From a virus: DNA of 64,000 nucleotides. Numbering within the stretch: the first letter of the stretch is position 1; each line of letters begins with the position of its first letter. The position numbers and the translations under genes are program-made. The notes under the pieces were generated by a model that saw only the letters and a program-made list of their open reading frames with translations, did not search any database and had not been told where the DNA came from. Positions 9,292-43,813 of this stretch are shown one piece after another. The stretch lies in IMG/VR virus record IMGVR_UViG_3300012036_000004, positions 1 through 64,000 of that record; one strand, written 5' to 3'.

Positions 9292-9693
9292 TTATCGCAA
9301 GGCTTTGAGCACGGCCTCTGCGCGAGACTGCGTGTCCAAATCCGTTCCAAGTGTGCGGTTAATCGTACCTTTGACCTTGTTCCCCATCGTATCAGCATCG
9401 CCTGCCAGGTGCAGGCCGGTAAGACCTGCGCCGAGAAGAGCCACTCCTGGCAATCCCAACCCGCGCTGCTGCTGCTCTTGCGACACGGAGTCCCCCATCA
9501 TGTAAGGGAGCTGTGCCATCGACATCTGCGCCAACTCATTGTAGGCGCGCTTGACGATGTTTCGCGCGGAGTCCGGAATGTCAGACGCCACTTTCGCGAC
9601 GAAGAGATCATTACGGTCGTCGTAGCCTGTCGCACTTGCGACGGCGCTACGCTGCGCGGGGGAAAGCGATGCTGTCTTGAGCCAGGGGTACAT
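9292..9693 (-). CDS. Putative head-internal protein, paralogue C
   Basis: LKTA and AKVA motifs; Gly-rich hydrophobic stretch; C-terminus resembles 9701 and 10255 ORFs. Confidence 0.6.
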   Translation of the reverse strand: MYPWLKTASLSPAQRSAVASATGYDDRNDLFVAKVASDIPDSARNIVKRAYNELAQMSMAQLPYMMGDSVSQEQQQRGLGLPGVALLGAGLTGLHLAGDADTMGNKVKGTINRTLGTDLDTQSRAEAVLKALR

Positions 9694-9700
9694 GAGTTCC

Positions 9701-10258
9701 TCAGAGTCCGAGTTGGCTTTTCAGACCTTGCAGGGGGCCGCCCATTCCGAGCGTCGCTTTCGCGTCTCGGATGCCGCCGCCCAGAATCGACGTCTGCTTC
9801 AACCCAAGACCTCCGCGAAGTTTATTCGCCGTGCTGTCCTCGGGGGTCATCCCGGCCGCGGCGGTGCCTGCTCCCGCGAGGCCGAGCCCCGCAGCGCCTG
9901 CCATCACCTTGTTCTGGTCGTCGATGACCTGCCAAGCTCGATCCGCGTTTCTCTGGACGCCGGGTAGCTGCGGCCCGTGCGCCAGGTCATCGAGGTACTG
10001 GGTCGCTTTGCCGCGCCCCGCTCTGCCTCGGCCGACGTTCTCCACGAAGCGTCCGATGCGCTTTCCAGCAGCGCCAATCGCGTCGCCGACGGCTTTTGCT
10101 TTGCTCGCGACCTTCTCGTACTCGAGAATGGCCTCAGCAATCTTGAGTGCGCCGGGGTCATTGTTTCGGACAGCAGACCGAACGAAGTCAGCCGGGTCGA
10201 TGTTGTGCTCCGCCATTTTCACGAGAGCACCGTATGCGAATGCGTGTTTCTGATTCAT
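9701..10258 (-). CDS. Putative head-internal protein, paralogue B
   Basis: First ~51 aa nearly identical to the 10255 ORF, ending EYEKVA. Confidence 0.7.
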   Translation of the reverse strand: MNQKHAFAYGALVKMAEHNIDPADFVRSAVRNNDPGALKIAEAILEYEKVASKAKAVGDAIGAAGKRIGRFVENVGRGRAGRGKATQYLDDLAHGPQLPGVQRNADRAWQVIDDQNKVMAGAAGLGLAGAGTAAAGMTPEDSTANKLRGGLGLKQTSILGGGIRDAKATLGMGGPLQGLKSQLGL

Positions 10259-10848
10259 TGGCCTACCAGTTCCTTGAGTTGTTCCAGGGTTGCATCGCCT
10301 TGGGTTCGCTGGTCCATGCCAACGGCACCGCGAAGCGTGTTGGCGAGAGAGTCTTCCGGCGTCGCCATGTAGTCAGCGCCCGCGGCCGCACCACCTGCGG
10401 CAGCCAGACCACCTGCGCCTAGCGCCATATTCTGGTCCCGCATGAGGCGCTTACTGGCAAGCAGCCCTTCGAGCTGGCCCTCGCTGAGGTTCTCGAGCTC
10501 ACCGAACGCGTCGATGGTGTCTTGCGCGATGCCGCGACCTTGTCGTCCGCCGGCAAGATTGCCTGCGAAATCACCGGCACGTCCTGCTGCACCGGCCATG
10601 CCGCTTCCGATGCCTGCGACAGCGTCACCGGGTGCGCGGGTGACCCGCTTCGCTGCAGCCGATGCCAGATCGCCAGCGGCTTCCATACGTCCACCAGCGA
10701 CCTTCTCGTACTCGAGAATAGCTTCGGCGATTTTCAGGGCGCCCGAGTCGTTGTTCCGAACTGCGGACCGAACGAAATCAGCAGGATCGACCTGGTGATC
10801 GGCCATCTTGACGAGGGCGCCATATGCGTATGCGTGAAGCGGATTCAT
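10255..10848 (-). CDS. Putative head-internal protein, paralogue A
   Basis: AGGAG RBS; shared N-terminal leader; ATGA coupling. Confidence 0.7.
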   Translation of the reverse strand: MNPLHAYAYGALVKMADHQVDPADFVRSAVRNNDSGALKIAEAILEYEKVAGGRMEAAGDLASAAAKRVTRAPGDAVAGIGSGMAGAAGRAGDFAGNLAGGRQGRGIAQDTIDAFGELENLSEGQLEGLLASKRLMRDQNMALGAGGLAAAGGAAAGADYMATPEDSLANTLRGAVGMDQRTQGDATLEQLKELVGQ

Positions 10849-10883
10849 GTGTTCTCCTACGGCGCCGAGGCGCGAAGTGTGTA

Positions 10884-14295: not shown

Positions 14296-15214
14296 ACAAA
14301 GGACTCTGCAGGTCAGCGGGTACCTCCACTCTATACTCTACCGAGGTCCGCGCAAGCTCGATGACCTGGCAGTGCTGAGTGACGCGTCGTCGACGCAGCT
14401 TTCGGTCGCTTGTTCCGTCGACAAGCCAACGCCGGTTGTTGTCGAGCTCTACAAGCACATCGTTTTCTTCAAGCCGCGGATAGTCGACGAACTCGGCACG
14501 TGCTCGCGTCATCTTGGTGTTTCCTTCCTGCTCAATCTGGGATTGCGTATCTCCCTCCGTGATGCGCATCAATGTTCCCACTGCCGGGAAGTAGCCGTTC
14601 TCCCAACCAGTGCCGTAACAAGACATACAGTTGGAGACGAGCGATTTTTTTAGAACTGGGTCGTAGCAAGCCAGGCAGCGAACGCCGAAGTGCCGTCGCT
14701 TGAGCACCGCGATGCGAACTCCGGTGAACATCTCGAGCGCTACATGCGCGTAACGCTGCACCGCTCGGTGCGCGAGCTGGAGGCGCCGCTGAATACGTGG
14801 GTTGTCATGGAAGACAGTCTCGGGAGTCGGTCGAGTTTCATCGCTATCTACTGTCAGTCCGTGGGCGGCTTCGTTAAGCACCTGCCCGATGGTCGACCCC
14901 TCGTTGTCGACAGCGTTGCTGATGTAGACATCGTTGGCAGCCGTTGTCGCGACGACGCGGTACCAGATCTCGCGCTCGATGGAGAGCTGATTGATGCCGC
15001 CCTCATTGTTCTCGAAGAGCGTGTCCTCGTACATCACAGAAGATACGCCAGACGCAATCGTCTCCCACGCGCCGCCGCCCTGCTTCGGGGAGCCCGACCT
15101 CTGGACGTCGAACGTCAAGCCGGCGAGCTCTGCGGAGGTGGCGCCTTCGACGCTCCACTGGATGAGAACATGCCGAGGATAGTGCGGCAGCACATGGTCA
15201 ACGATGACTTCCAT
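14288..15214 (-). CDS. Neck/head-closure protein with Zn finger
   Basis: RCLACYD...CMSCYGTGW; C-terminal P.L..NDVLVE..N.RWLV beta-barrel pattern; N-terminal FN3-like domain. Confidence 0.65.
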   Translation of the reverse strand: MEVIVDHVLPHYPRHVLIQWSVEGATSAELAGLTFDVQRSGSPKQGGGAWETIASGVSSVMYEDTLFENNEGGINQLSIEREIWYRVVATTAANDVYISNAVDNEGSTIGQVLNEAAHGLTVDSDETRPTPETVFHDNPRIQRRLQLAHRAVQRYAHVALEMFTGVRIAVLKRRHFGVRCLACYDPVLKKSLVSNCMSCYGTGWENGYFPAVGTLMRITEGDTQSQIEQEGNTKMTRARAEFVDYPRLEENDVLVELDNNRRWLVDGTSDRKLRRRRVTQHCQVIELARTSVEYRVEVPADLQSPLYE

Positions 15215-16206
15215 CAGGGTGACGGCCCCGGGTTCCCTTGGGCGTCGGCGCTGGGCATGTCTGTTACTTCGAACGAATCATGCTCAGCCCAGGCTCGAGA
15301 CGTGGGTTCGTCTCCCTGGCCAGAATCCCGAGAGTCGTTGTCGACGTCGGGCCACTGCGGAAGGCCTCGAGCTTCTTCATCTTCGACCCACTCGCGGTTG
15401 GGCGGAAGCACGGAACCGATCTTGTTGTGCTCGGACCACTGAAACACGGTGCCGTTGTGTGCCTCTTCGCCGCTGGGGGCGTAATGCTCTACCGCGTCGA
15501 ATCTTTCACTGACGGCGCGTTCTTGCTGGCTGTCGGTGAGCTCCGCGCGCGAGCCGCCCGCGTCGGGATACTCATCTTCCCCCTCCACGACGTTCTCTGA
15601 TTGCACGGCAGACTTGATGCGGTCTGCGTATAGCTTGGCCAGGCGCGACAAATCAGCGTAGCTCTGCACCGCAGTCGACGCGTATTTCTGCTCCTGAGGC
15701 CGGCGCTGAAGCGTTGGGTTTTCCCCGGATACAGAAGGCGTGTCGCTCCCCGGTGCGAAGGTCTCATGAGACTTCCAGGCGATATCCAGGCCTGTTTGAA
15801 TGTCCCGATCTCGGATGTCGGAATAGTCTCGCCCCTCCGGATTCCCGTCTTTGACTTCGTAACGTTCGAAGTCACCGTCGTCGGCTTCCATGGAAATCAT
15901 GCGCGACACCTTGGAGAGAAATGATATGGCTCGCTTTGCGTTGTACATACCACTCCTTGCTTCACCGATGTTGGGTGCAGGCTCTCGTTCTCCGCGAGCG
16001 ACCTGCTCTCGGTAGGTCTTCCGGTCCGGCAAGATAAAGACGCGCTCCGCGGCGGTTTCTTCGAATCCAGGAATCAACTGCGTACCATACAGCCGGTCAC
16101 CCCGATCTCGGAGCGCCGATTCAGACACACCGCGCCAGGCAGTGGAGGCCACCTGGTCGGGTATTGAGCCGGTAGCCGCAAGTTTACGCAGTAAACTCGA
16201 CATCAA
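15214..16206 (-). CDS. Hypothetical protein (likely virion)
   Basis: Coupled within operon; RKLA and QKYA motifs; acidic C-terminus. Confidence 0.65.
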   Translation of the reverse strand: MMSSLLRKLAATGSIPDQVASTAWRGVSESALRDRGDRLYGTQLIPGFEETAAERVFILPDRKTYREQVARGEREPAPNIGEARSGMYNAKRAISFLSKVSRMISMEADDGDFERYEVKDGNPEGRDYSDIRDRDIQTGLDIAWKSHETFAPGSDTPSVSGENPTLQRRPQEQKYASTAVQSYADLSRLAKLYADRIKSAVQSENVVEGEDEYPDAGGSRAELTDSQQERAVSERFDAVEHYAPSGEEAHNGTVFQWSEHNKIGSVLPPNREWVEDEEARGLPQWPDVDNDSRDSGQGDEPTSRAWAEHDSFEVTDMPSADAQGNPGPSP

Positions 16207-20848: not shown

Positions 20849-21208
20849 TTACTCGAGCAGGAAGGACCCAAATCGATCCCACGCGTCATCACCTGAGCCG
20901 GCTTCTTTCGTTCGCGACTTTCGCGACTGACCCAAATTGTCAGCCGTTTCCGGCGCAGCCAATTTCTGCAGAACCTGACGAACTTCGTCGTCGCCGTGCG
21001 CTGCAATCTTTCGGAAGACACCCATGTCGGGCTCTTCCCCTGTCATTTCTGTGAACTGCGCTGCGAGTTTCTGCGCCTCGACAGACACGCGCTCTTCATG
21101 AATCGCGTTCTGACCTTCAGCGAGCTTGCGGTTCTCGGCTTCGAGAGCGTCGAGGTAGTCCGCAGTCTTCTCGAGGAATTCAGCAATTGCTTCGTTCGAT
21201 ACGCTCAT
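20849..21208 (-). CDS. Scaffold-like coiled-coil protein
   Basis: Multiple KxA motifs; C-terminal DAWDRFGSFLLE. Confidence 0.6.
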   Translation of the reverse strand: MSVSNEAIAEFLEKTADYLDALEAENRKLAEGQNAIHEERVSVEAQKLAAQFTEMTGEEPDMGVFRKIAAHGDDEVRQVLQKLAAPETADNLGQSRKSRTKEAGSGDDAWDRFGSFLLE

Positions 21209-21211
21209 AGC

Positions 21212-26268: not shown

Positions 26269-27483
26269 CTAGATCGGTGCTTTGGTCTTCTGCGGGAGCA
26301 GGGCTTGCGGCGCGATGCTTTCGTTGACGCGAGCCATTTGCCCCAGCGTAGCGTAGTCGGGTCCGTTGGCAGCCAGCATAGACTCTCGCAGGAAGTTCTT
26401 CACGGCGAATTCGTCCGTCGCGAGATCTGGCGAGAATCGGGTCATCGAATTGAACGATCGGCGCAGCATATCTTTGTCTTCCGGCGTCGCCTGACTGAGC
26501 AACGGATCGGACTGCATCGCATTCTGGAACTGGACGTCCTGGTCGAACGAGCGGTTGTGATGCACCGCTGCGGTTGCGCCCACGTTGACGCCTTCTCGAA
26601 TCGCTTCGTCGAGCAGGTTCGCCATGTTCTTGCCCGACTGCGACAAGAACGAGGCCGCCGCGGTGTCCGTCGCCTGGATTCGGTCTTCGATGGGGATATA
26701 CTTCTTGGCGAGTTGGTACTCGAGCCCGGACCCCACAGCAGCGTCGCCCTGTAGGATGTCAGCGCCAGCACCCAGTGCCGCCGCTCCGCCTGCCAGCGCC
26801 ATTGCTTTTCCAGGGGAGAACTGCCGCGGCCCGGCTTCCATGGCGATGCTGCCTGCTGCGTCTGTGACGTTCCTCAGCACACCTTTGTCGACGAAGGTCC
26901 GAGGCACTTTGGCTCCCGGAGAGGAGACAAGGTCACCGACCAGGTCGCCGAGCACGTCAATGCCGTGGCCGAAAGCGCGGGGGAGCGACTTAACGGCTGT
27001 CTTCTCAGCTGCACGTTTCTGTACGAAGGATGTGAATGGGTCAGTCATCAGGTTTTCTCCGGTTGCCTGCGCCTGGGCAAGCGGCGCGACAGTGCTTGAA
27101 TTGAGATAAGCTTCGTCAGCGGCGAATGGGATAGAAAGCACCGCACCGCCGACGAGCGCTCGAGGAAGTGTCATCCGGCTACTTACCGCGTCGGCGACTC
27201 CCCCGTACACAGGGGAAAGCGCGCTCTGCGAACCGGGCTGCAGTGCTACGTCTAGCGCCTTCCCTGTACCACGCGCTCCAGCCGCAGCGACTTGCGGAAC
27301 CGTCTCCGCTGCAGCGCCGCCCATCCCTGTGGCAAGCTGGGCGAACCACGACGGAATGGCAGAGCTCGAGCTGAGCAATCCCGGGCGTCGCGCAGGGCCT
27401 TCAGCGAGCTCCTTGGAGACGTCCATCAGACGTCGCGCAACGCGGCTCTCGCTGGAAGCCAGTTTTTCGTAGAGATCATTCAC
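26269..27483 (-). CDS. Putative internal head protein
   Basis: GTGA-coupled start (MNDLYEKLA); QKRA and EKTA motifs. Confidence 0.6.
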   Translation of the reverse strand: MNDLYEKLASSESRVARRLMDVSKELAEGPARRPGLLSSSSAIPSWFAQLATGMGGAAAETVPQVAAAGARGTGKALDVALQPGSQSALSPVYGGVADAVSSRMTLPRALVGGAVLSIPFAADEAYLNSSTVAPLAQAQATGENLMTDPFTSFVQKRAAEKTAVKSLPRAFGHGIDVLGDLVGDLVSSPGAKVPRTFVDKGVLRNVTDAAGSIAMEAGPRQFSPGKAMALAGGAAALGAGADILQGDAAVGSGLEYQLAKKYIPIEDRIQATDTAAASFLSQSGKNMANLLDEAIREGVNVGATAAVHHNRSFDQDVQFQNAMQSDPLLSQATPEDKDMLRRSFNSMTRFSPDLATDEFAVKNFLRESMLAANGPDYATLGQMARVNESIAPQALLPQKTKAPI

Positions 27484-28301
27484 CGAAGAAGTGGCTCCGC
27501 TTGACGTTCCATCCAGGCACATCCCTGCGCCAACTCGAGTGCGTCGTTATATGCAGCGACTACTTCGCGGAACATCCCGTGCTCTTTTCGTTCGACGACG
27601 TAGCGCGTTGCGCTGGCAGTCTTCTCGGAAGACTCGGGGAGACGCGGATTGTGCTCACGGACTTTCGCCAGGATCGTGGCAGCAACCTGCGAATCAGCGA
27701 GAGCGTGGGCGTCCTTCTCGAACTCTTCGAAAGGCATCGAAGAGACATAGTTGAATGTCTGAGCGAGAGCAGCAACCTTGTCGGTGTACTCCATGTGCGC
27801 AGCGAGCGCGGCCATCTTCAATTCTTCCGCCACCTTGTTGGTGAGCTGGATGGCGTGGTGCATCTTGTCACCGGCATACGGGTCTTCCGGCTCGGGCTCC
27901 GCTGCAGCGGGGAAAGCTTCGGCGGCGAGCTTCTCTGCGACCTGATGACTCAGCGTATCCCAACGCTCGTCCGGTAGCTCGAGACGCAGTGAGGCGACCT
28001 TCCCGAAGAAGTCAGGCTCGTCGTCATGATCGTCAGGGTCAGGAGACGCGAAGAGACGGCTCGCAACTTTCTCAGGCTCCACCACATCGAACTCGACGTA
28101 CTTGTGGTCGGCCATCTTCTCGAAGAGAACCAGGTGTGCGTTGAGGTTCGTTGCCTCCAAGAGACGTCGCGCTTCGTAGGCGTTCATGCAGCGGTCGTCC
28201 GCGACTTTGACTACGCCGTCTTCCAACGGAACGGCTTGCTGGACGAAAGTGTCCACGATGGATTTGGCAAACCGCTGGTAGTCTTTGTCGTTGTAGCTCA
28301 T
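27480..28301 (-). CDS. Putative head protein
   Basis: Nine KxA motifs. Confidence 0.6.
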   Translation of the reverse strand: MSYNDKDYQRFAKSIVDTFVQQAVPLEDGVVKVADDRCMNAYEARRLLEATNLNAHLVLFEKMADHKYVEFDVVEPEKVASRLFASPDPDDHDDEPDFFGKVASLRLELPDERWDTLSHQVAEKLAAEAFPAAAEPEPEDPYAGDKMHHAIQLTNKVAEELKMAALAAHMEYTDKVAALAQTFNYVSSMPFEEFEKDAHALADSQVAATILAKVREHNPRLPESSEKTASATRYVVERKEHGMFREVVAAYNDALELAQGCAWMERQAEPLLR

Positions 28302-29037: not shown

Positions 29038-31611
29038 CTAGCTGGGTGCGTCTACGTTTTCGTCGCTTGCGACGATGGCGTTGATGCGAAGAATGGTATC
29101 TCCCATTCCCTCGAATAGCGACTGCAGCTTATCACGGATCTCGTTGTAGGTCCCGTCTCCGATTCTCTCACGAAGGATAGGCGCCTTCATTCGAACCTCG
29201 GTCAGCATGCGACCCAGGGCGTCAAGCGACTCTCGGACAGCAGGCAAAAAGCCCGACACCGTCGAGTCGAAATTGTTTGACTCAGCCAGCGACGCAATCG
29301 CCGCGGCATCAAACATGTCGGGGTCTTCGAGCTCCATGGCGGCTTCCATCATGCCAGGCTCTTCCACGGGCATACCGTCGGGTCCCACCGGCGGTGCGCC
29401 GCCTGGTCCCATTCCGGGCCCCATTCCGGGCCCCATTCCGGGTTCCATACCCTCAGGAGGCATCTCGCCTGGGTACATGCCGCCGCGTTCGGCCATCATC
29501 TGTGACCCGGCCGGGTCCATCGACGCCATGTCAGGTGCAGCGCCGCCCATCATCGCCGGGTTCATGGGCTCGATCGGGGGTGCCATGACTTCCGGCGCAG
29601 GAAGGCCCGTCTGCATCGAGAGTTCGTTGGCGCGGCCCACTACTGCCTGGATCGCTGCCATCTGAGTTTGAATGCTCTGCGCTTGTTGCGCCATCTGCGA
29701 CATGATGAGCTGGTTCTGCTCGGCGAGCTGGTCAGCCACTTCCTGTGCCGCCATCTCGACGACATTCGGGGGCGGAGGCATGGGAGGCATTCCGCCCATC
29801 ATCGCCGGGTCCATCATCGCCGGGTCCATCATCGCCGGGTCCATCATCGCCGGGTCCATCGGAGCTCCACCGGGAGGTGCTCCGCCAGGAGGCGGGCCTG
29901 CAGGCTGCGCAGTCTTGGTACGCTGAAGCACGTAGAACTGAGCAAGACCTTTGTCTCGCGCAGTTTTCACCGCTTCTTCAGCGTCGGGGACTGCGACGTT
30001 GTATTCGAAGACCAGGTGCTTGACCGTGGCCAGCTTGTCTCGTTCTGCTCCGTCTGTGTACAGGAAGCCTGCGCCTGCATCTTGGAGACGGATGATATCG
30101 GCGCCGGCTTCAGCCAGCTTATGGAAGTGGCTGTTCACTACGTCGCCAGCATCGCGAATGATCTCGTCTCCCGAGATCGTTTCTTTCACAGGGAGAAACG
30201 CCCACTGGTCGGGCACCAGAATCAGTGTAGCACTGTCGATACGGTCGCCCCGATCTTTCTTGTCGGCGAACGCGTAGGGGACGTAGTTCGTGTGCGGACT
30301 CCCGCTGGACGTCCTCTCTCCAATGAGGAGACGAGGTACCACGCCTGGTGCACCTTCAATCTGCTGCACCGTGACCTGGTTGCCGCTGTAGACCTGTCCG
30401 GCGGCGTAGTGCGAGCCGTCGGTTGACCAGGTCCGCTCCACTGCCATCGGCTCGAGCGCAATCAAGTTGCCCGGGTCGGGGTTGTAGAAGATACCCTTCT
30501 GATTGTTCTTGGGCTTCTCAGAGGTCGGCTTCGTCACGAGCTTCCACAGCTTCTCCGGAACCTCTTGAGGCCCAACGGGTTCCGCCACGAAGTCGTCCTT
30601 GAGCACGAAGAGCTCTCCGTCTTCCGTAAGCCCAGCGCGACACACATAGGAGCGCTTGCTCCGGTCGTCGTACTCGGTCTTGCCGGTCAGTCCTTTCCCG
30701 TAGCGAAGCGTGTTCTCGGTGAGCACTTTCCCGAAGATGAGCGCAATCTGTGTACGCCCATCGGTTCGGTAGATGCGGTAGTAACCGGTATCCGACGGGA
30801 TGGTGAGCTGCAGAGGCGTCTCCGTCTCGTACATCACCGCCATGTCGAGCTCGGGACGCTCGTCCCAGGCGGCGTAGCCCTGCTCAGCAATGGTTCGGAA
30901 CACATTGGACGAGTCTTCCTTTGCCTTCTCTTTGATCTCTTCGGCCGGAGTCTCCATCGTCATGAAGCTGACCGTCGGGGCCGCTTCTTTGACCTGGGGC
31001 AGGGCGCGAAGTGTTACGGCGTCGCGCAAAGCGTTTACCCCGTAAACATCGAAAGCGAACTTTGCGATGTGAGGGTTGTTCTCCAGGGTTCGAACGAAAG
31101 CCACCTTGACCGGGTTCGAGGCCTCCCACAGATAGGCGGGGAGGTTGGTGTGCTGATTGACGCTGGCGTAGCTGTACCGGCCTGTGGTCGGCGGGACGAC
31201 GATGTTTCGGATGTCGACGTCCGAAGACAGGGTCTCCGGGGCCTTCATGCTTTCGCCCATCTGCTGCTCGCCGACGTGCTCCACTTCAGTGAGCCACTGC
31301 TCGTTGAGTGGGAGCATCTGGTCGAGGCTCTTCACGTACATCGTGTCGAACGGCAGCATCTCGTTGTCGGCGAAGATGGCCGGGACGTGCACCTCTTCTC
31401 CGCCGCGCTCCACGATGAATGCGCCAACCGCGTGATTCGTCGAAGGGTCCGCCTCCTGAACTTTGAAAGACACGACCGAATCTACAATCTCGGGCGCCTT
31501 GGACACGAGCTGGGCGAAAGCGAGCTCTTGAAATGACTGCTCGAAGATCTCCTGCGGGTCGCCCCCGCCGGATTCTTGCATCATCATTTGTGTTCGGGGA
31601 GATACGGACAT
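29038..31611 (-). CDS. Large putative head protein with Pro/Met/Gly-rich region
   Basis: Start MSVSPRT; KxA motifs; DPAMM and GMGP repeats. Confidence 0.65.
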   Translation of the reverse strand: MSVSPRTQMMMQESGGGDPQEIFEQSFQELAFAQLVSKAPEIVDSVVSFKVQEADPSTNHAVGAFIVERGGEEVHVPAIFADNEMLPFDTMYVKSLDQMLPLNEQWLTEVEHVGEQQMGESMKAPETLSSDVDIRNIVVPPTTGRYSYASVNQHTNLPAYLWEASNPVKVAFVRTLENNPHIAKFAFDVYGVNALRDAVTLRALPQVKEAAPTVSFMTMETPAEEIKEKAKEDSSNVFRTIAEQGYAAWDERPELDMAVMYETETPLQLTIPSDTGYYRIYRTDGRTQIALIFGKVLTENTLRYGKGLTGKTEYDDRSKRSYVCRAGLTEDGELFVLKDDFVAEPVGPQEVPEKLWKLVTKPTSEKPKNNQKGIFYNPDPGNLIALEPMAVERTWSTDGSHYAAGQVYSGNQVTVQQIEGAPGVVPRLLIGERTSSGSPHTNYVPYAFADKKDRGDRIDSATLILVPDQWAFLPVKETISGDEIIRDAGDVVNSHFHKLAEAGADIIRLQDAGAGFLYTDGAERDKLATVKHLVFEYNVAVPDAEEAVKTARDKGLAQFYVLQRTKTAQPAGPPPGGAPPGGAPMDPAMMDPAMMDPAMMDPAMMGGMPPMPPPPNVVEMAAQEVADQLAEQNQLIMSQMAQQAQSIQTQMAAIQAVVGRANELSMQTGLPAPEVMAPPIEPMNPAMMGGAAPDMASMDPAGSQMMAERGGMYPGEMPPEGMEPGMGPGMGPGMGPGGAPPVGPDGMPVEEPGMMEAAMELEDPDMFDAAAIASLAESNNFDSTVSGFLPAVRESLDALGRMLTEVRMKAPILRERIGDGTYNEIRDKLQSLFEGMGDTILRINAIVASDENVDAPS
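29797..29860. repeat. 15-nt tandem repeat (CCATCATCGCCGGGT) encoding DPAMM; a 12-nt GMGP repeat lies at about 29404-29445
   Basis: Directly visible. Confidence 0.85.
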
Positions 31612-31618
31612 GGTTATC

Positions 31619-32134
31619 TCACTGCAGGATGCTGGAAAGTACGGCGTTGAGTACCGGAATTGATTGCAGCGCTGCTTCAGTCCCGACGTCACGGCCGACA
31701 TGCTTCAAAGCTTGTCGCGTGTCCGGAGAGTGCTTCAGGGTGTAGGCGCCTGCTCTCGCCTTGTCTCCCATGAGGGGCGCTCCCGAGGCCAACTGCACGA
31801 CGTCGAGTACGTTGATGATATCCTGCCGCTCTTCAGGGTCTTCGATATATGCGGAAGCGCCCAAAAGCATCGGCACCCTCGCAAGAAGCGTGATGTCGTT
31901 GATGCCCTTAGCGATCCGCAAAAGTTCTGCGTGTCGACCTTTCGCGTCGGGTGCGGGGGTAACGGGCGCGGCAACCTGTGCGCGCTGAGCTACAGGAGCT
32001 GGGCTCGCATGCAAAACCTCGGCTCGTTCGCGAGGCATCGCTGCCTGTAACAAGCCGAGATCAGGAGACGCCGAGACCGGAATCCCGCGTGCGGCAGCAA
32101 TCTGCGCCGCGCGGTTGGCATGTTGCCCGATCAT
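31619..32134 (-). CDS. Hypothetical protein
   Basis: GAGGG RBS; fills operon gap. Confidence 0.6.
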   Translation of the reverse strand: MIGQHANRAAQIAAARGIPVSASPDLGLLQAAMPRERAEVLHASPAPVAQRAQVAAPVTPAPDAKGRHAELLRIAKGINDITLLARVPMLLGASAYIEDPEERQDIINVLDVVQLASGAPLMGDKARAGAYTLKHSPDTRQALKHVGRDVGTEAALQSIPVLNAVLSSILQ

Positions 32135-32144: not shown

Positions 32145-33260
32145 TTATCGCGTCAGTTGATTGAGGCTACCGAGAAGCGAACCCACGGTGCTCTGCGGCG
32201 AGTACTGCTGCGCGACCTTCTGCAGGTACTGCTGCTGTGCGATCGGCTCGAGGCCCATGCACTGCTTGACGGCGGCGACCTTCTCTTCCATCGGCATCGC
32301 GTCCGGAAGCTGCGGGCCGACCAGTGTGGCGACCGCGTTGAAGTGTTGATTCCACTGCGCGTTCTTGGTGGCATCCACCACCGAGTTCGACGCGTCGCCG
32401 CTGTGCGCGGGCTGGTCAGGGTGAGGCGTTTCCATGCCGGTCACCGCGTTCGACGGGGTGCCGTCGAAGTTGGCTCCACCTTGTCCGACCGCTGCGTAGT
32501 CTTCGGGGCGCTGGGCGATGTCGAGCTTGCCTTCGCCGCTGGGCGAAGCGTGCTGCGTGTTCGGAGCGCTCGAAGCGCCGGTGATGGTCGACGACTCCGA
32601 ATCAGCCGGAGCCGAATCCTTCGGTTGGTCGCCCATGGCGAGCTTACGAAGCGCGGCCTGAACCGAGGCCTCTTTGGAGTTCGCCGAACTGTTCTGCGAC
32701 GCTCGGGTAACCGAGTTCGAATCGACGCCACCCGGTGCCTTCGGTGCCAGGGGGTGCTTCATCTCAGCGCCCTGAACTGCGTTGGCCGGAACCAATCCGT
32801 CGATGTTCGTGCCGCCCAGACCTTTGAGGTACGGGTCATTGGTGCCTTCACCACGGTGCTCGTCGAGGACTTTGTTCGCGTCCATCGAGTTCGCCGTGGT
32901 GTTGGGAGGCGAGGACTTTCCGTCAATCACGGACGAGCCCTGGTGCATCGCCTGTTTGACCAGGTGCGTGATCACGTCCCCGTACGCAACCTGCGGGTCG
33001 TGGTCGATGGTCGCGCCTTGTCCGGCCGAAGCGACCTTGCCCTGCTGGGAAAGTGCTTCGTTGAACGCAACGAGATGTTTCGCCACTTTGAACGTCTCCT
33101 CGTAGGGGACTGCATTCGCTGCAGGCTCGATATCGAGTGAGTTCGCCGCGATTGCGCATGCCTGCTTGAGCAGACCTTCGGTCGGGATTTGAGTGGTGCC
33201 CGTTCGCTGGAGGTAATTTCCAACTCCGCGGGCAAATGCAAGTTTCGTTACGCTGGACAT
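32145..33260 (-). CDS. Putative internal head protein with internal duplication
   Basis: AGGAG RBS; about 10 KxA motifs; two related ~100-aa modules. Confidence 0.65.
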   Translation of the reverse strand: MSSVTKLAFARGVGNYLQRTGTTQIPTEGLLKQACAIAANSLDIEPAANAVPYEETFKVAKHLVAFNEALSQQGKVASAGQGATIDHDPQVAYGDVITHLVKQAMHQGSSVIDGKSSPPNTTANSMDANKVLDEHRGEGTNDPYLKGLGGTNIDGLVPANAVQGAEMKHPLAPKAPGGVDSNSVTRASQNSSANSKEASVQAALRKLAMGDQPKDSAPADSESSTITGASSAPNTQHASPSGEGKLDIAQRPEDYAAVGQGGANFDGTPSNAVTGMETPHPDQPAHSGDASNSVVDATKNAQWNQHFNAVATLVGPQLPDAMPMEEKVAAVKQCMGLEPIAQQQYLQKVAQQYSPQSTVGSLLGSLNQLTR

Positions 33261-33328: not shown

Positions 33329-36300
33329 TTACCGCTTCCAGAACGGTGACGCAACAGCGCTACCGTTCTGGGAAGATTGCTGCGTCTTCATTCGATGCAG
33401 CTCTCGTGCGGGGTAGTGGCCGGACCGCACAGAGAAGTCTTGTTTCATTTGCGTTGGCAGACCGGGTCGCTGCTGTTGCTGTGCGCGAGCCTGCTCTGCG
33501 GCGAACTGCTGCTGCTGCCACATCTGACGCAATTGAGGAGAGTGCTGCTCCCACTCCGCTCTTGCCGTACCCAATGCGTCTTCTGCAAGGTTAAGTCGGG
33601 CGAGGTACGGATGGCTCTGCATCGAACCCCATACGGCGTCGGCACTCCGATCTCCGTACTGCGCAGCCTGACCCCACGCGTTGGGGTTCGTGCGCATCTG
33701 CTGCGGCGAGGGTCGGGCCGCCATTCGCTGTCCACCGGGAGGCTGACCTTGTGTTGGAGGCTGACCTTGTGTTGGAGGCTGACCTTGTGTTGGAGGCTGA
33801 TAGTTCGGGTCGATTTTCCGTCCGATGGCTTTTCCGGCTGCGGTGAACGGTGCCGCAAATGCGCCGCCGGAAAGCATCCCGAAGGGCGACCCGATGGCCC
33901 ACCCCAGCGAGTCGCCCAACGTGCCGCCGATATTCTCCAGCTTGGACTGCCCTTCGACGTCAGGGGCGTTGGCGGCTTCATGCACCATGGCCGCCGGCAT
34001 CCCGTACGCCATGCCCTTGTTCAATACGTCCATCGAGACGGGCAGGACCATACCACCGTATCCCGCATCCACGTTGGGGTTTCGCGCATTTCGCCAGGCA
34101 CGCATCACGTCCGGGTCGATCGCCATCTCTCCGTGAAGCAACCCGCCCCGCCCGAAGATGCCGCCCATCTGGGCACGCTGCTTCATTATCTTGAGGGGGT
34201 TCTGCCCGATCGACACGTCGCTGGCGCCGCGGGCAATGCGTCGCCCCAACCCTGGTCGCGCCGCCGCGTACTGCTGCGCCACGTCGGGGGTGAACATCTT
34301 TGCAGCCGCCGGATTGACGTTCTCCAAATCCACCTTGGCTCGAGCGAAGTCGGAGAGCGCTTTTCCGTGTGTCTCTTCGAACGCTTTCAAGCGTTCTCCG
34401 AATGCTTGGGCCGATTCATCCGCGCCTCGTCGCGGTACATTCTCCACTGCCTCGCGAGTGAATTGAGACAAGTTCAGGTGTGGATTGCGGCTCGCCTGCT
34501 GCGCCTCCTGGAGCGCGCCGCCGATGTTCTTGAAGGCCTTCTCATTGGAGTCGAGCGTTCGAACGAATCGCGCACCCTCGTCAGTGAGTTGGTTATTCTG
34601 AATCAGGTTCGCCCGAGACATGAAATCGTCGGGGAGTCGTTTCATACGGCGCGCAGCGTCGAGTGCCGCTGTGTCAATTCCGCCAGCCGTCCAGGGCGCA
34701 TCCGAGATCATGCGTAGGGCCTCGTCACCTTTGGAGGCGACCTGCTCCGCGAACTCATCACCCGACCCGACCAAAATGCGTTTCAAAAGACCAGCTTTGC
34801 TCGCGATCTTTTCCACGGCACCGCCGTCCGCAGCGTATTTCCCTTGTAGCCCCGTGCCGAACGGAGCGCCGATCGCGTAGGCAGGAACAGGACTGGTCGA
34901 CGCAATGTCGGTGGTCGAACCAAACCCTGCGCCTTCTACCAAGGTGCGCTTGAGGTAGCGGTGCGACAGACGAGACATCCAGTCGTCGTTGAGCAGCGGC
35001 GCCTGGATCATGGACTTCATGATAGGCGTCGTCACAGTAGGGAGGTTGGATACACTCACCGAGGCAATGCCGTTGTTCTTGAGCTCAGCTTGTACAGACG
35101 GCGTGATGCGTGTGCCTGTCGAGAAGTGCAGCGTCTGCTCTGCCAGGTAGTGACCCTTCGCTTTGCTCACCGGCACGCTCTTGCCGGCCTTTGACATGCG
35201 CTTCTGGACTTCGGTGTACGGAACGATGTCGCCACGCAGGAACTTGTCGGTCGGGTCTTCCTCGACCCGCACGTGCTTCATGGCGTTTCGAGCCAGTAAC
35301 TCCGTATGGCGACGGTCAATGTCCACGCCTTGGCGGCGGTACAGGTCTGTCAGTTGGTTCGACAGGTACACGCGGCCCGCGCCGATTCCCTTGTGTTTTA
35401 CGACGGCGTTCGGAAGTGCGACGCCGTCAGACAGTGCGTCACCCGCTTCGACGATGTCACCCTGTTTGACGATCGGCTGCAATCGCGGCGGAGTGTAGTA
35501 ATTCTTGCCGGCAACACGGATGTGCCACCCGCCCTGCGGCGCTTTCTTCACCGACTCGACGCGGCCGTCGTGTTCTGTGATAGCCGCCTTGTCTTGGAAC
35601 GATTTCGGGACTTCGGTGAGCGTACGAAACCCCGTGAGACCCGTGAGCTCGGTTGCGCCCTGGCCCTTTCCTTTGGCGAGTCGAACGCCGTGCTTGGCGT
35701 TTAGCGCGAACTGCGTCAACGGTTCGGTCATCGCCTGTGCGCTTCGTGCGCCGACATTCGTTCCGACCTGATGCGGTTTGCCCCACTCGTTGAGTCCCAC
35801 ACACTTCTGGCACACTCCATCATGGGCTTCGCATGCCGTGGGGCTTCGAACCAAAACCTTCGGTTTGTTGGCCTTTTTCAGCTTGTTGACGACGTCAGAT
35901 GTAACGAGGGTGTTCCGGGATACGGGACCCTCATCTCGCGCGAGGTAGCGGTCTTGCACCTGGTCTGTCACGGGAAGAAGAATCCCGCCTCTCGTGCCGC
36001 AGTCAGCTTGCGTCACCACCAGGTCGTCCATGTTGTTCATGACGACTTTGGCGACCATACCCGGCTCGACAACAGCGCCCGAGGAAGCGATCGCGTTTCG
36101 ACGTGATTCTACGCCGGTCACCCACGCGTCTGCCGGGTTGACTCCCTGCGAGTACGACTTGGTCACGAGCCACGGTGTCGCCTGGCCCTTGTTCATCGCG
36201 AGGACGGGTGACGCAACAATCTTCATGAGCTGCGCAATGGAGCCTCTGCCGCCTGACTTGGCCATGATGGTCATGTCGGAAGGATGATTCTCCGTGGCGG

Positions 36301-36640
36301 TGACCATCTTGTCCTGCGTCTCGAGCAGGATCTTTCGCTTCTCTTCGTCTGACTTGGCGGCTTTGATGCGACGAAGCGCGTCTTTCATGACAGGGTCGCG
36401 CTGTTTGTAGTCAGGCGCAATGTCATCCAGTCCCACCGAGATCCCTTCCAGGGTCGCAACTTCGTCGCCCAGTGACTTGAGTTTCATCACCGTCTTGACG
36501 TAAGTGTCCGGGTCCGACTTCGCGAGCTCCGTCATCTGCTTCTTGAGGATGCCTTTGGTCACCGGACCGTCCATCCTCATGTCGCCGGGAAGCGTCTCAT
36601 TGAGAAGGAAGTGCCCCAGAGTTTGATTGTCATCAGGCAC
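33329..36640 (-). CDS. RNA polymerase beta' C-terminal subunit fused to a ~490-aa Gly/Ala/Gln-rich domain
   Basis: SGGRGS; bridge-helix region; DCGT; RSPTAC...VCQKC Zn site; trigger loop AQAMTEPLTQ..L..KH; GGAGG RBS before GTG 36640. Confidence 0.9.
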   Translation of the reverse strand: MPDDNQTLGHFLLNETLPGDMRMDGPVTKGILKKQMTELAKSDPDTYVKTVMKLKSLGDEVATLEGISVGLDDIAPDYKQRDPVMKDALRRIKAAKSDEEKRKILLETQDKMVTATENHPSDMTIMAKSGGRGSIAQLMKIVASPVLAMNKGQATPWLVTKSYSQGVNPADAWVTGVESRRNAIASSGAVVEPGMVAKVVMNNMDDLVVTQADCGTRGGILLPVTDQVQDRYLARDEGPVSRNTLVTSDVVNKLKKANKPKVLVRSPTACEAHDGVCQKCVGLNEWGKPHQVGTNVGARSAQAMTEPLTQFALNAKHGVRLAKGKGQGATELTGLTGFRTLTEVPKSFQDKAAITEHDGRVESVKKAPQGGWHIRVAGKNYYTPPRLQPIVKQGDIVEAGDALSDGVALPNAVVKHKGIGAGRVYLSNQLTDLYRRQGVDIDRRHTELLARNAMKHVRVEEDPTDKFLRGDIVPYTEVQKRMSKAGKSVPVSKAKGHYLAEQTLHFSTGTRITPSVQAELKNNGIASVSVSNLPTVTTPIMKSMIQAPLLNDDWMSRLSHRYLKRTLVEGAGFGSTTDIASTSPVPAYAIGAPFGTGLQGKYAADGGAVEKIASKAGLLKRILVGSGDEFAEQVASKGDEALRMISDAPWTAGGIDTAALDAARRMKRLPDDFMSRANLIQNNQLTDEGARFVRTLDSNEKAFKNIGGALQEAQQASRNPHLNLSQFTREAVENVPRRGADESAQAFGERLKAFEETHGKALSDFARAKVDLENVNPAAAKMFTPDVAQQYAAARPGLGRRIARGASDVSIGQNPLKIMKQRAQMGGIFGRGGLLHGEMAIDPDVMRAWRNARNPNVDAGYGGMVLPVSMDVLNKGMAYGMPAAMVHEAANAPDVEGQSKLENIGGTLGDSLGWAIGSPFGMLSGGAFAAPFTAAGKAIGRKIDPNYQPPTQGQPPTQGQPPTQGQPPGGQRMAARPSPQQMRTNPNAWGQAAQYGDRSADAVWGSMQSHPYLARLNLAEDALGTARAEWEQHSPQLRQMWQQQQFAAEQARAQQQQRPGLPTQMKQDFSVRSGHYPARELHRMKTQQSSQNGSAVASPFWKR
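33738..33800. repeat. 18-nt tandem repeat x3 (QPPTQG)
   Basis: GGAGGCTGACCTTGTGTT repeated. Confidence 0.9.
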
Positions 36641-37292
36641 CGTACCCTCCAACGCCAGGGTTTCTCAGTTTCTTCGTTACGTTCACTCCGTCCGACAAAG
36701 ACCACGCGGTTCCGCCGGCCGCCAGTGCTTTGCCGGGCGTGCCCCGCGCCACTTCGGATGCCCGGTGACCAACGTTCGACATCATGCGTCGACCCGGAGA
36801 CATGCCTTCAGTCTTCGCCGCGTGTGTTGCAGCTCGCTCTGCTTTGGCTGTTTGAGACTTCACCGCGCTTGCCTGACGTCGGTTGGAGAAGAAGTTTCGA
36901 CTCTTCTTTCCGAAGTTGCTACTCCCTTTTCCGCCAGCTTTCCCAACCCCTTTGATGGCTTTCCCAACCCCTTTGATGACTTTCCCAACCCCTTTGGCGA
37001 AAAATTTCCCGCCCTGAATCAGCGGACTCAGTAACGCGATTTTCTCCATGTCCTCCGGAGTTGGGTGAAGCAGTGCTTGACGGAGCATTGCGGTCTTGAT
37101 GGAGGGGGCACCCATATCGATGCCCAGACGAGACGCGGCGTCCTGTCCGAACAGGGACGTGGGTTCACCCCACGTGAGCGGTTCGAGCCCATACAGGTTA
37201 TCGCCTTTGAGCTCCCGAATACCTTTGGGCTCGGAAGGCTCTTCCGTGATTCCCTCGAGCAGTTCTTTGACTCCGGTGATCTTCTTTTCCAT
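36633..37292 (-). CDS. Protein between the RNAP genes: acidic N-terminus, cationic amphipathic C-terminus
   Basis: TAATG coupling; IKTA and EKIA motifs; 21-nt repeat encoding KGVGK(V/A)I. Confidence 0.7.
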   Translation of the reverse strand: MEKKITGVKELLEGITEEPSEPKGIRELKGDNLYGLEPLTWGEPTSLFGQDAASRLGIDMGAPSIKTAMLRQALLHPTPEDMEKIALLSPLIQGGKFFAKGVGKVIKGVGKAIKGVGKAGGKGSSNFGKKSRNFFSNRRQASAVKSQTAKAERAATHAAKTEGMSPGRRMMSNVGHRASEVARGTPGKALAAGGTAWSLSDGVNVTKKLRNPGVGGYGA

Positions 37293-43812: not shown

Positions 43813-43813
43813 G

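What the first reader, a model, noticed from the sequence alone, without database searches (positions are those of the whole stretch)
9292..37292. Candidate K-x-A capsid-loading and maturation system
Seen: about 15 late-strand proteins around the protease and capsid genes carry many K-[T/V/I/L/Q/E/M/Y/R]-A motifs. There are about 11 in 22486-23172, 9 in 27480-28301 and about 10 in 32145-33260. They often sit at the boundary between a leader and a Gly/Ala-rich amphipathic region. Known: T4 gp21 (I/L-x-E) and phiKZ gp175 (S/A/G-x-E) cut short repeated motifs in core and internal proteins. Inference: the protease at 23244-25190 recognises K-x-A, so the motif marks the set of packaged and ejected proteins.
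Basis: partly seen in the sequence, partly recalled or inferred. Interest (0 to 1): 0.85.

Follow-up and report, generated by a model that had tools for sequence, protein, structure and literature searches.

The report
Lys-x-Ala head-protease cut-site motif
An uncultured large phage, its hundreds of relatives and at least two cultured groups (Salmonella phage Arash, Vibrio phage D181) stud their head-assembly proteins with a short Lys-x-Ala signal that most likely tells the head-maturation protease where to cut; this rule has not been described for any phage and nobody has measured it yet.

Summary
Among 1,600 gapped dipeptide patterns, K-x-A is the most enriched in the 9292-37292 block (112 observed, 60 expected). 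It is not enriched in the rest of the genome. Six window proteins are individually significant. In 22486-23172 all 12 lysines lie in K-x-A.

The same pattern ranks first in 69 of 80 related viral contigs (GC 40-71%), in Vibrio phage D181, and is strongly enriched in three head-module proteins of Salmonella phage Arash. Controls (A-x-K, K-A, R-x-A, K-x-S, out-of-frame DNA, tail genes) are flat.

Invariant K-x-A sites flank the catalytic domain of the protease, whose model has the T4 gp21/herpesvirus fold. One lies about 27-31 residues into the capsid protein. One ends a 15-residue leader shared by eight unrelated proteins. Two sit at a natural gene-fusion junction. The same scan on T4 recovers its known I/L-x-E motif.

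Best reading: K-x-A is the prohead protease's cleavage motif, probably cut after Ala. No cleavage has been measured. The claim that the motif marks all packaged proteins is only partly supported.

This scan had noted similar leader-plus-cut-site systems in other phages, with other motifs. I found no paper describing K-x-A.

The parts
23244..25190 (-). Prohead protease polyprotein (648 aa). It has an N-terminal leader, a catalytic domain of about residues 35-234 with invariant H110 and S161 (VSMG), and a C-terminal extension of about 410 aa.
   Evidence: phrog_18299 head maturation protease, E 9e-10. AlphaFold model pLDDT 82. VIA-align to T4 gp21 5jbl_A: Z 10.0, rmsd 2.7 over 128 aa; herpesvirus proteases Z 6-8.4. 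Invariant residues.
25089..25097 (-). K32-Y-A34 (then Ser), just before the catalytic domain; candidate N-terminal self-processing site.
   Evidence: K32 and A34 are invariant in 25 proteases down to 35% identity. A K.A occurs at residues 16-75 in 62 of 68 orthologues. The model's confidence is low just before it (residues 27-29 under pLDDT 50).
24480..24488 (-). K235-V-A237, right after the catalytic domain; candidate release site like the herpesvirus R-site.
   Evidence: Invariant, or at least 90% conserved in 45 sequences, and a K.A at this column in 100% of 68 orthologues. It lies in the linker 233-245, which has pLDDT under 50.
23325..23351 (-). K614-A-A and K620-H-A, 27-35 residues from the protease C-terminus; possible M-site analogue in front of a conserved C-terminal tail.
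   Evidence: 42 of 68 orthologues have a K.A 15-48 residues from the C-terminus, against 11.4 expected. This is weaker than the other two sites.
22486..23172 (-). Scaffold-like acidic protein (228 aa) directly downstream of the protease: 12 K-x-A, and every lysine lies in one.
   Evidence: 12 vs 2.5 expected. 35 orthologues: 401 vs 96 expected, with nine site columns conserved in 60-100% of sequences at about 35% identity. K and A inside the motif are conserved 0.56/0.59, against 0.25 overall and 0.21 for the middle residue.
20849..21576 (-). Three small motif-rich proteins: 20849-21208 (6 sites), 21212-21352 (3) and 21349-21576 (3).
   Evidence: The 20849 family has 141 vs 30 expected over 26 orthologues.
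27480..28301 (-). Motif-rich head-module protein (273 aa, 10 sites); homologue of Arash gp220.
   Evidence: 10 vs 2.4. Family 180 vs 50 expected. Arash gp220 has 10 vs 3.0.
32145..33260 (-). Motif-rich protein (371 aa, 10 sites), including K6-L-A8 at the extreme N-terminus.
   Evidence: 10 vs 2.6. K6 site conserved in 92% of 25 orthologues. K/A in the motif are conserved 0.61/0.69, against 0.12/0.27 outside.
29038..31701 (-). Large conserved head-module protein (887 aa) of unknown role, about 2-fold enriched.
   Evidence: 7 vs 3.5 here. 607 vs 291 expected over 60 orthologues, with five conserved site columns. No PHROG or Pfam match.
25190..26260 (-). Protein upstream of the protease (356 aa, 8 sites vs 4.6) with a Gly/Ala-rich hydrophobic segment after K125-Q-A127.
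   Evidence: In many relatives the matching position holds small motif-enriched ORFs.
19324..20226 (-). Major capsid protein (300 aa) with a single K-x-A, K27-T-A29 (20140-20148); candidate short N-terminal propeptide.
   Evidence: phrog_2522 major head protein, E 2e-4. Profile hit to phage G capsid protein 6wkk_A, E 0.0025. K.A at the same column in 64 of 65 orthologues. Arash gp226 has K27-E-A29, and D181 has it too.
33329..36652 (-). RNA polymerase beta'-C chain (about 600 aa) fused to an extension of about 500 aa. K605-Y-A and K615-I-A (34802-34840) sit at the junction.
   Evidence: The extension is homologous to separate ORFs directly downstream of a 590-600 aa RNA polymerase gene in at least 12 related loci (phmmer E 3e-14 to 4e-4). 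Some of those ORFs align from just after the junction, in an untidy N-terminal alignment.
9292..10848 (-). Three small proteins with N-terminal leaders holding K-x-A (K6; K14 in two paralogues, plus K39 and K49) and Gly-rich hydrophobic payloads. They sit in the tail gene block here.
   Evidence: Their homologues in the relative G002 lie in that genome's leader-gene block, not in the tail block. Enrichment is modest (10 vs 4.2 summed).
15214..16206 (-). Protein with K8-L-A10 at the N-terminus and 4 sites vs 1.0 expected.

Best explanation
K-x-A is the recognition and cleavage motif of the prohead protease encoded at 23244-25190. The fuller profile is [L/F/M]-[E/V/T]-K-[T/V/I/L]-A-[S/A/E]-[E/D]. 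The enzyme is a serine protease with the T4 gp21 / herpesvirus assemblin fold.

Proposed sequence of events (inferred):
1. The protease is made as a polyprotein and assembles into the prohead.
2. It frees its catalytic domain by cutting at the invariant sites on either side (K32-x-A34 and K235-V-A237).
3. It chops the site-dense scaffold or core proteins around it (22486, 20849, 27480, 32145 and small neighbours) into pieces.
4. It trims about 29 residues from the capsid protein.
5. It removes short N-terminal leaders that end in K-x-A from a set of otherwise unrelated small proteins.
6. It separates the RNA polymerase beta'-C chain from its fused partner.

The cut is most likely after Ala (K at P3, Ala at P1, Ser/Ala at P1'). 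This follows the pattern of the T4 and phiKZ motifs and of the herpesvirus Ala-Ser/Thr sites.

Shown here: the enrichment, its specificity, its conservation, the positions of the sites, and the protease fold. Inferred: that the sites are cut, by this enzyme, and at which bond.
For: 1. Specific enrichment. K.A is rank 1 of 1,600 patterns in the block and is not enriched elsewhere in the genome.
2. Family-wide signal. K.A is rank 1 in 69 of 80 related loci with GC 40-71% and protease identity down to 30%. Pooled on the head side it is 4806 vs 1975 expected (2.43x). On the tail side it is 1.19x.
3. Flat controls: A.K 0.86, KA 0.77, K..A 1.15, R.A 0.95, K.S 0.89.
4. Short-linear-motif signature. 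K and A in the motif are conserved two- to five-fold better than K and A elsewhere, and the middle residue is conserved less than average.
5. Invariant sites flank the catalytic domain, in or next to low-confidence stretches of the model.
6. The protease fold matches T4 gp21 (Z 10.0) and herpesvirus proteases.
7. The capsid protein site is conserved in 64 of 65 orthologues.
8. Eight genes in this genome begin with M-[TSD]-x-[FY]-E-x-G-Y-x-x-F-[ML]-K-x-A, and their payloads share no BLAST similarity. The relative G002 has at least 10 similar leaders.
9. A natural fusion junction carries two sites.
10. Positive control. The same scan on T4 gp20-gp24 ranks I.E first and L.E sixth, and not in T4 tail genes.
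11. The pattern is present in cultured phages: three motif-rich head-module proteins in Arash and rank 1 in the head module of Vibrio phage D181.
Against: No cleavage product has been observed anywhere. The only virion proteome of a relative (Arash, PMC10585845) gives no peptide-level data.

That proteome reports 96-100% coverage of the motif-rich gp220 and gp223, which at face value argues against their removal. The dataset is loose, however: it lists 116 'virion' proteins including metabolic enzymes, and reports 100% coverage from two peptides.

The catalytic domain and the large packaged RNA polymerase chains are neither enriched nor depleted, so folding rather than sequence must protect them.

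The leader-bearing genes lie beside baseplate and cell-wall-hydrolase genes. A head protease could not reach them if they are tail parts.

The scissile bond cannot be read from sequence.
Confidence: 0.72

Rival explanations
1. K-x-A is a docking motif, not a cut site. The short peptide would bind a pocket on the capsid interior, the portal or the protease's non-catalytic part. It would serve to recruit and hold scaffold and cargo proteins, which stay intact.
For: The enrichment, conservation and leader data fit a binding motif as well as a cut site. Arash gp220 and gp223 are reported in virions with high coverage.
Against: Invariant sites exactly bracketing the catalytic domain in or next to low-confidence stretches, a site at a fusion junction and 9-12 sites per small protein are what known protease substrates look like (T4 gp22: 16 I/L.E sites). 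A docking peptide rarely needs a dozen copies. The five- to six-position preference profile, with Pro and bulky residues excluded after Ala, resembles protease subsites.
Confidence: 0.12
2. The motif is cleaved, but at a different bond or by a different enzyme. The cut could come after Lys (K at P1, as recalled for the HK97 capsid protein), or be made by a host or second phage protease.
For: Sequence alone does not fix the bond. Lys is the most strictly required residue, and Arg cannot replace it (R.A 0.95).
Against: Ala is as strictly required as Lys. The residue after Ala shows its own preference (Ser x3.0; Pro, Lys and Ile/Leu depleted). This fits Ala at P1 with a small P1' residue, as at the pseudorabies virus sites YLQA-T and VQA-S (PMC4498786). 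The sites bracket the phage protease's own domain, and the motif follows this protease family across hosts with GC 40-71%, which argues against a host enzyme.
Confidence: 0.12
3. The excess is a by-product of composition or helix periodicity in Lys/Ala/Glu-rich helical scaffold proteins.
For: The carriers are Ala-rich (14-21% Ala) and probably partly helical.
Against: Expectations were computed per protein from its own composition and by shuffling. The reverse and neighbouring patterns (A.K, KA, K..A, K...A), Arg in place of Lys, and Ser or Gly in place of Ala are all at or below expectation. The T4 scaffold shows only a weak excess of K.A (12 vs 7.0, z 1.9).
Confidence: 0.02

Closest known systems
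Phage T4 prohead protease gp21 with its (L/I)-x-E sites and the capsid targeting sequence of internal proteins IPI-III and Alt
   Same: Same protease fold (Z 10.0 to 5jbl). Same gene neighbourhood (protease, then site-dense scaffold, then capsid protein). A three-residue motif with a free middle position. Self-processing at both ends of the enzyme. A short propeptide on the capsid protein. A short shared N-terminal leader that ends in the motif on unrelated small proteins.
   Different: The motif is Lys-x-Ala instead of aliphatic-x-Glu. The protease is 648 aa with a long C-terminal extension (gp21 is 212 aa). No sequence-level family match (hhalign probability 2%). Nothing has been measured.
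phiKZ gp175 and SPN3US gp245 proteases of giant phages, cutting after (S/A/G)-x-E or A-x-E (PMC5694885, PMC10052503)
   Same: A large phage with its own virion-type multisubunit RNA polymerase. An N-terminal protease domain with a self-cleaved C-terminal part. Many head proteins carry one to several motif sites.
   Different: Different motif: basic P3 and Ala P1, against small P3 and Glu P1. Unrelated head-module proteins. The genome is smaller (about 150-190 kb in complete relatives).
Herpesvirus assemblin polyprotein (pUL26): protease, R-site, scaffold, M-site, capsid-binding tail, cut after Ala before Ser/Thr (PMC4498786)
   Same: Shared fold (Z 6-8.4). An N-terminal protease domain followed directly by an invariant x-x-Ala site and a long C-terminal part that holds further sites. 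Often a site about 25-35 residues from the C-terminus. Ala followed by Ser is preferred.
   Different: Lys instead of Val/Leu/Ile two residues before the Ala. The scaffold-like proteins are mostly separate genes. The third catalytic residue was not examined. Any evolutionary meaning of the shared Ala-Ser preference is speculative.
Salmonella phage Arash (OQ632216; PMC10585845) and Vibrio phages D181, D148 and D69
   Same: True relatives: protease 34-35% identical, the same head-module order, and the same K-x-A pattern in the homologous proteins.
   Different: Their papers and records annotate the protease only as 'structural' or 'hypothetical' protein. They say nothing about processing.

Membership tests
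Capsid maturation serine proteases of the T4 gp21 / herpesvirus assemblin fold | The characteristic fold of the catalytic domain | tested here: met
   AlphaFold model pLDDT 82. VIA-align gives T4 gp21 5jbl_A Z 10.0, rmsd 2.7 over 128 aa, with herpesvirus proteases next at Z 6-8.4. Foldseek's own E-values were weak (best 0.02).
Capsid maturation serine proteases of the T4 gp21 / herpesvirus assemblin fold | Conserved catalytic Ser and His | tested here: met
   S161 (VSMG) and H110 are invariant in 25 and in 45 sequences. hhalign places P-G-V-S161 on P-G-V-S140 of gp21 (low overall probability). That S140 is the gp21 nucleophile is from memory. The third triad member was not assigned.
Capsid maturation serine proteases of the T4 gp21 / herpesvirus assemblin fold | Encoded in the head module next to scaffold and capsid protein genes | tested here: met
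   Conserved gene order in 80 loci. The capsid protein lies 3 kb downstream.
Capsid maturation serine proteases of the T4 gp21 / herpesvirus assemblin fold | Proteolytic activity on head proteins | not testable with these tools
   Needs expression or virion mass spectrometry.
T4-type capsid targeting sequence (leader removed by the prohead protease) | One short N-terminal leader shared by otherwise unrelated proteins | tested here: met
   Eight genes of this genome (73702-73956 and 87671-91360, outside the window) share a 15-residue leader. Their payloads have no pairwise BLAST hit at E<0.01.
T4-type capsid targeting sequence (leader removed by the prohead protease) | The leader ends in the phage's protease motif | tested here: met
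   All eight end in K-x-A at residues 13-15. That this is the protease motif is itself inferred.
T4-type capsid targeting sequence (leader removed by the prohead protease) | The motif is aliphatic-x-Glu | tested here: not met
   The motif is K-x-A. L.E and I.E are not among the top patterns of the block. So it works like the T4 system but is not a member of its sequence class.
T4-type capsid targeting sequence (leader removed by the prohead protease) | Tagged proteins are found in the capsid without the leader | not testable with these tools
   No proteome of this phage exists, and the Arash data have no peptide-level information.
Herpesvirus-type protease-scaffold polyprotein with sites cut after Ala | Self-release site directly after the protease domain, and a second site near the C-terminus | tested here: inconclusive
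   K235-V-A237 is invariant and sits in a disordered linker. A C-terminal site is present in 42 of 68 orthologues against 11.4 expected. Cleavage has not been shown.
Herpesvirus-type protease-scaffold polyprotein with sites cut after Ala | Scissile bond Ala-Ser/Thr | not testable with these tools
   Only a preference is seen: Ser x3.0 and Ala x1.8 after the Ala, with Pro x0.29.

The most novel reading that the evidence does not exclude
This large, mostly uncultured phage family (at least 563 viral contigs, plus Arash, the D181 group and perhaps Bacillus phage G) uses a head protease with a specificity not known in phages: Lys at P3 and Ala at P1, before Ser. Its P1/P1' preference and its layout (protease, release site, scaffold, C-terminal site) match herpesvirus assemblin better than any characterised phage enzyme does. 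The same rule also operates a modular 15-residue loading tag on unrelated, membrane-active-looking cargo proteins. It would also release a protein that is fused to the virion RNA polymerase beta'-C chain in this phage but is a separate gene in relatives.
Probability: 0.35. Interest if true: 0.72.

Novelty: new variant of a known kind. Interest (0 to 1): 0.6.

Why it matters
Prohead-protease cut rules are known by experiment for only a few phage groups (T4-like, phiKZ-like, and a few small phages). Each known rule lets mature virion proteins, scaffold, propeptides and injected cargo be read straight from sequence.

A K-x-A rule would do this for a widespread family of 100-190 kb phages that carry their own RNA polymerase. 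About 80% of the genes in this family are unannotated.

It gives concrete predictions that can be tested cheaply in two cultured systems:
- the mature N-terminus of the capsid protein;
- the boundaries of the active protease;
- a list of tagged cargo proteins.

It also explains in advance why standard tryptic proteomics would miss the processing: trypsin cuts at the same Lys. The shared preference for Ala followed by Ser with herpesvirus assemblin is a further point of interest for the common origin of these enzymes.

Tried and rejected
- Nucleotide search of the head module against cultured phages: no match.
- Pfam on ten head-module proteins: nothing. PHROGs named only the protease, capsid protein, sheath, baseplate and terminase.
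Relatives were fetched with the search for related loci instead.
- Arash paper and supplements: no protease, cleavage or peptide-level data.
- Literature searches for a K-x-A protease motif, for Arashvirus, and for phage G processing, plus a 2026 jumbo-phage review: nothing relevant.
- Capsid protein fold: pLDDT 51, unusable, so it was not searched. A profile search against PDB sequences gave only a weak hit to the phage G capsid protein.
- Profile of the protease domain against PDB sequences: no true hit.
- hhalign to T4 gp21: only a short local match.
- Depletion of K-x-A inside the catalytic domain as a sign of self-protection: not seen (observed/expected 1.17).
- DNA pattern search for the leader in five relatives: one hit only, too strict. 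It was replaced by six-frame regular expressions on the fetched G002 genome.
- The 65158-66171 protein: no PHROG and no tblastn match in cultured phages.
- Compositional and helical artefact: rejected by controls.
Full report
**What the window is.** The window is the first 64 kb of a 101,735-bp viral contig with about 59% GC. A long minus-strand late block runs from about 5.2 to 41.7 kb. Read in the direction of transcription, it holds:
- a two-chain phage RNA polymerase (37292-41746 and 33329-36652);
- a head module;
- the capsid protein (19324-20226);
- neck, sheath (10884-13574) and baseplate genes.

I called 99 genes on the whole contig with a codon-usage score, covering 95% of the DNA.

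**Checking the observation.** I compared K-x-A counts with each protein's own Lys and Ala content, analytically and with 2,000 shuffles.

| Protein | Observed | Expected |
|---|---|---|
| 22486-23172 | 12 | 2.5 |
| 27480-28301 | 10 | 2.4 |
| 32145-33260 | 10 | 2.6 |
| 20849-21208 | 6 | 1.0 |
| 21349-21576 | 3 | 0.4 |

A further gene outside the window, genome 65158-66171, has 13 against 2.95. In 22486-23172 every one of the 12 lysines lies in a K-x-A. In 20849-21208 six of seven do.

To avoid testing only the pattern I had been given, I ranked all 1,600 patterns of the form X, gap 0-3, Y. K.A is first in the 9292-37292 block (112 observed, 60.3 expected, z 6.7). It is only 100th in the rest of the genome (z 1.8).

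The signal is in the protein, not the DNA. AARNNNGCN occurs 54 times in the coding frame of the enriched genes, and 4 and 2 times in the other two frames.

**Is it conserved?** The protease has more than 700 homologues in metagenomes. A profile search found 563 related viral contigs, and I fetched 80 of them with 10 kb on each side. Running the same unbiased ranking on each locus, K.A is first in 69 of 80. These loci span GC 40-71% and protease identity down to about 30%.

The pattern follows gene order:
- Enriched: the homologues of 32145, 29038 (2x), 27480, the small ORFs before the protease, the protease itself (2x), 22486, and the small proteins after it.
- Not enriched: the homologues of 28306, 26269 and 20280.
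- The capsid protein has one or two sites, and the tail genes downstream have almost none.

Pooled over 75 loci, the head side has 4806 sites against 1975 expected (2.43x). The tail side has 1.19x.

Controls on the same head-side proteins are flat:

| Pattern | Observed/expected |
|---|---|
| K.A | 2.43 |
| A.K | 0.86 |
| KA | 0.77 |
| K..A | 1.15 |
| K...A | 0.98 |
| R.A | 0.95 |
| K.S | 0.89 |
| K.G | 0.58 |

In family alignments the Lys and Ala of the motif are conserved at 0.56-0.69, against 0.12-0.28 for other Lys and Ala in the same proteins. The middle residue is conserved less than average (0.17-0.21). That is the signature of a short linear motif.

The wider preference over 4,127 non-redundant sites is [L/F/M]-[E/V/T]-K-[T/V/I/L]-A-[S/A/E]-[E/D]. 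Gly, Pro and Asp are excluded from the middle position. Pro, Lys, Ile and Leu are excluded after the Ala.

Some loci are near-duplicates, so the number of independent lineages is below 80.

**Where the sites sit.** Four placements bear on mechanism.

1. *The protease.* In 25 proteases down to 35% identity, K32-x-A34 (followed by Ser in at least 90% of them) and K235-V-A237 are invariant. The same holds in 45 N-terminal domains. An AlphaFold model of residues 1-270 (pLDDT 82) folds residues about 35-232 with high confidence. K235-V-A237 lies inside the low-confidence linker 233-245, and K32-x-A34 follows a low-confidence stretch (residues 27-29). The fold is that of T4 gp21 (5jbl_A: Z 10.0, rmsd 2.7 over 128 aa), followed by herpesvirus proteases (Z 6-8.4). 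S161 (VSMG) and H110 are invariant, and a weak profile alignment puts S161 on the P-G-V-S of gp21. The C-terminal 410 residues are 2.46-fold enriched, while the catalytic domain is not (1.17). Of 68 orthologues, 42 have a further site 15-48 residues from the C-terminus, against 11.4 expected.

2. *The capsid protein.* It has a single site at K27-T-A29. A K-x-A occupies the same alignment column in 64 of 65 orthologues. In the window's protein an indel has shifted the local sequence, yet the motif is kept.

3. *A shared leader.* Eight genes elsewhere on this contig (73702-73956 and seven between 87671 and 91360, all minus strand) begin with M-[TSD]-x-[FY]-E-x-G-Y-x-x-F-[ML]-K-x-A. After that they share no BLAST similarity, and several continue into Gly-rich hydrophobic segments. 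The 95%-complete relative G002 has at least ten genes with similar leaders ending in K-x-A at residues 10-25. In the window, 9701-10258 and 10255-10848 carry a related leader (K14-M-A16). 9292, 15214 and 32145 carry K-x-A at residues 6-8. In the late block, 9 of 34 proteins have a K-x-A in the first 15 residues, against 2.5 expected.

4. *A fusion junction.* The RNA polymerase beta'-C gene is about 600 aa in most relatives and is followed by a separate ORF. Here, and in the two closest relatives, the two are fused, and K605-Y-A and K615-I-A lie at the junction.

**Positive control.** The same unbiased ranking on T4 genes 20, 67, 68, 21, 22, 23 and 24 puts I.E first and L.E sixth. Within gp67, gp68, gp21 and gp22 they rank first and second. 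In T4 tail and terminase genes they rank 646th and 585th. So the method recovers an experimentally established prohead-protease motif. The signal in the present phage is stronger than T4's.

**Cultured relatives.** tblastn finds the protease in Salmonella phage Arash (gp222, 35% identity) and in Vibrio phages D181, D148 and D69. More distantly it finds gp19 of Bacillus phage G.
- *Arash:* gp220 (10 vs 3.0), gp223 (8 vs 3.0) and gp225 (7 vs 1.8) are motif-rich. The capsid protein has K27-E-A29, and the protease is bracketed by K-Q-A and K-V-A.
- *D181:* K.A is first in the head module (51 vs 22.5, z 6.0), with the same bracketing sites.
- *Phage G:* a weaker version. K.A is first in gp4-13 and fourth in gp14-27. 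gp19 has 8 sites against 2.4 expected, on both sides of its domain, and the capsid protein has none.
- *Arash paper:* it lists 116 proteins found in virion preparations but never mentions a protease or processing, and it holds no peptide-level data. I found no paper describing a K-x-A rule.

**Mechanism proposed.** The enzyme is made as a polyprotein, co-assembles into the prohead and then cuts at K-x-A. This would:
- free its own catalytic domain;
- fragment the site-dense scaffold or core proteins;
- trim the capsid protein;
- remove leaders from tagged proteins;
- separate the polymerase chain from its fused partner.

I place the cut after Ala, with perhaps 60% confidence within the cleavage reading, for three reasons:
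- The T4 and phiKZ motifs occupy P3 to P1.
- The residue after Ala has its own small or acidic preference, with Pro and bulky residues excluded.
- The structurally related herpesvirus enzymes cut after Ala before Ser or Thr. The pseudorabies virus sites are given as YLQA-T and VQA-S in PMC4498786.

The layout of protease domain, invariant site, long site-bearing C-terminal part and frequent C-terminal site also recalls herpesvirus pUL26.

**What is not shown.**
- No cleavage has been measured.
- The Arash table reports near-complete coverage of gp220 and gp223. If reliable, this would mean they stay in the virion. That fits phiKZ-type inner-body proteins but not a fully expelled scaffold. The table is clearly loose, however.
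- The polymerase chains are packaged in Arash but show no enrichment, so the motif does not mark all packaged proteins.
- The leader genes lie next to a baseplate wedge gene, an M23-like cell-wall hydrolase and a NUDIX protein. Whether their products ride in the head is open.

**Rivals.**
- A pure docking motif cannot be excluded without data. It explains the bracketing of the catalytic domain, the junction sites and the dozen copies per scaffold protein less well.
- A different scissile bond or a different enzyme remains possible.
- A compositional artefact is excluded by the controls.

**Earlier notes of this scan.**
I read their leader as ending at K14-M-A16, by analogy with the eight-gene family, although K49-V-A is also present.
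- The scan has reported analogous leader-plus-cut-site systems in other phages, with aliphatic-x-Glu or Leu-x-His motifs. The kind is therefore not new. The K-x-A rule and the family it belongs to are.

**Verdict.** The feature is real and strongly conserved. It is most likely the cleavage code of an assemblin-fold prohead protease with a specificity not described before. Cultured phages are available to test it.

Noticed in passing
Genome G000 73702-73956 and 87671-91360, minus strand (L083:9702-9956; L084:3671-7360); outside the window: Eight genes start with the same 15-residue leader, M-[TSD]-x-[FY]-E-x-G-Y-x-x-F-[ML]-K-x-A, followed by unrelated payloads of 62 to 243 aa. Several payloads have glycine-zipper-like hydrophobic stretches. 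The genes lie after a baseplate wedge gene, an M23-like hydrolase and a NUDIX protein.
   Followed up: partly
Genome G000 89747-89965, minus strand (L084:5747-5965): This 72-aa ORF ends in a decayed copy of the leader (…S-P-F-Q-R-G-Y-T-Q-F-M-N-M-A…, with Asn in place of Lys) just before its stop codon. It may be a remnant of a ninth leader gene or a mis-called boundary.
   Followed up: no
Genome G000 65158-66171, minus strand (L083:1158-2171): A 337-aa protein with 13 K-x-A against 2.95 expected, far from the head module, next to an HNH endonuclease gene and near the terminase gene. It has no PHROG, no tblastn match in cultured phages and no BLAST homologue in G002. The motif predicts it to be a head protein.
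   Followed up: partly
window 33329-36652: The RNA polymerase beta'-C chain is fused to the product of what is a separate downstream gene in most relatives. The fusion is shared with the two closest contigs (L001, L002).
   Followed up: yes
window 20280-20798: The 172-aa protein between the motif-rich proteins and the capsid protein has no K-x-A here, and none or almost none in its orthologues, although it is 14% Ala. It may be a shell or decoration protein that must stay intact.
   Followed up: no
Protease homologues P0048, P0070, P0097, P0100: Some family members are 935-1015 aa and carry Hint/intein and LAGLIDADG endonuclease domains, so inteins have invaded the protease gene in part of the family.
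   Followed up: no
L085 (Bacillus phage G, JN638751 2107-32667): Phage G shows a weaker K-x-A excess around its gp19 protease, and its solved capsid protein (6wkk) is the only PDB sequence hit of this family's capsid profile. The 500-kb phage G may be a distant cousin of this 100-190 kb family in its head genes.
   Followed up: partly
window 9292-10848 against G002 41937-44947: The three small leader-bearing genes sit between the sheath and baseplate genes in this phage. Their homologues in G002 lie in the leader-gene block, so the genes have moved.
   Followed up: partly
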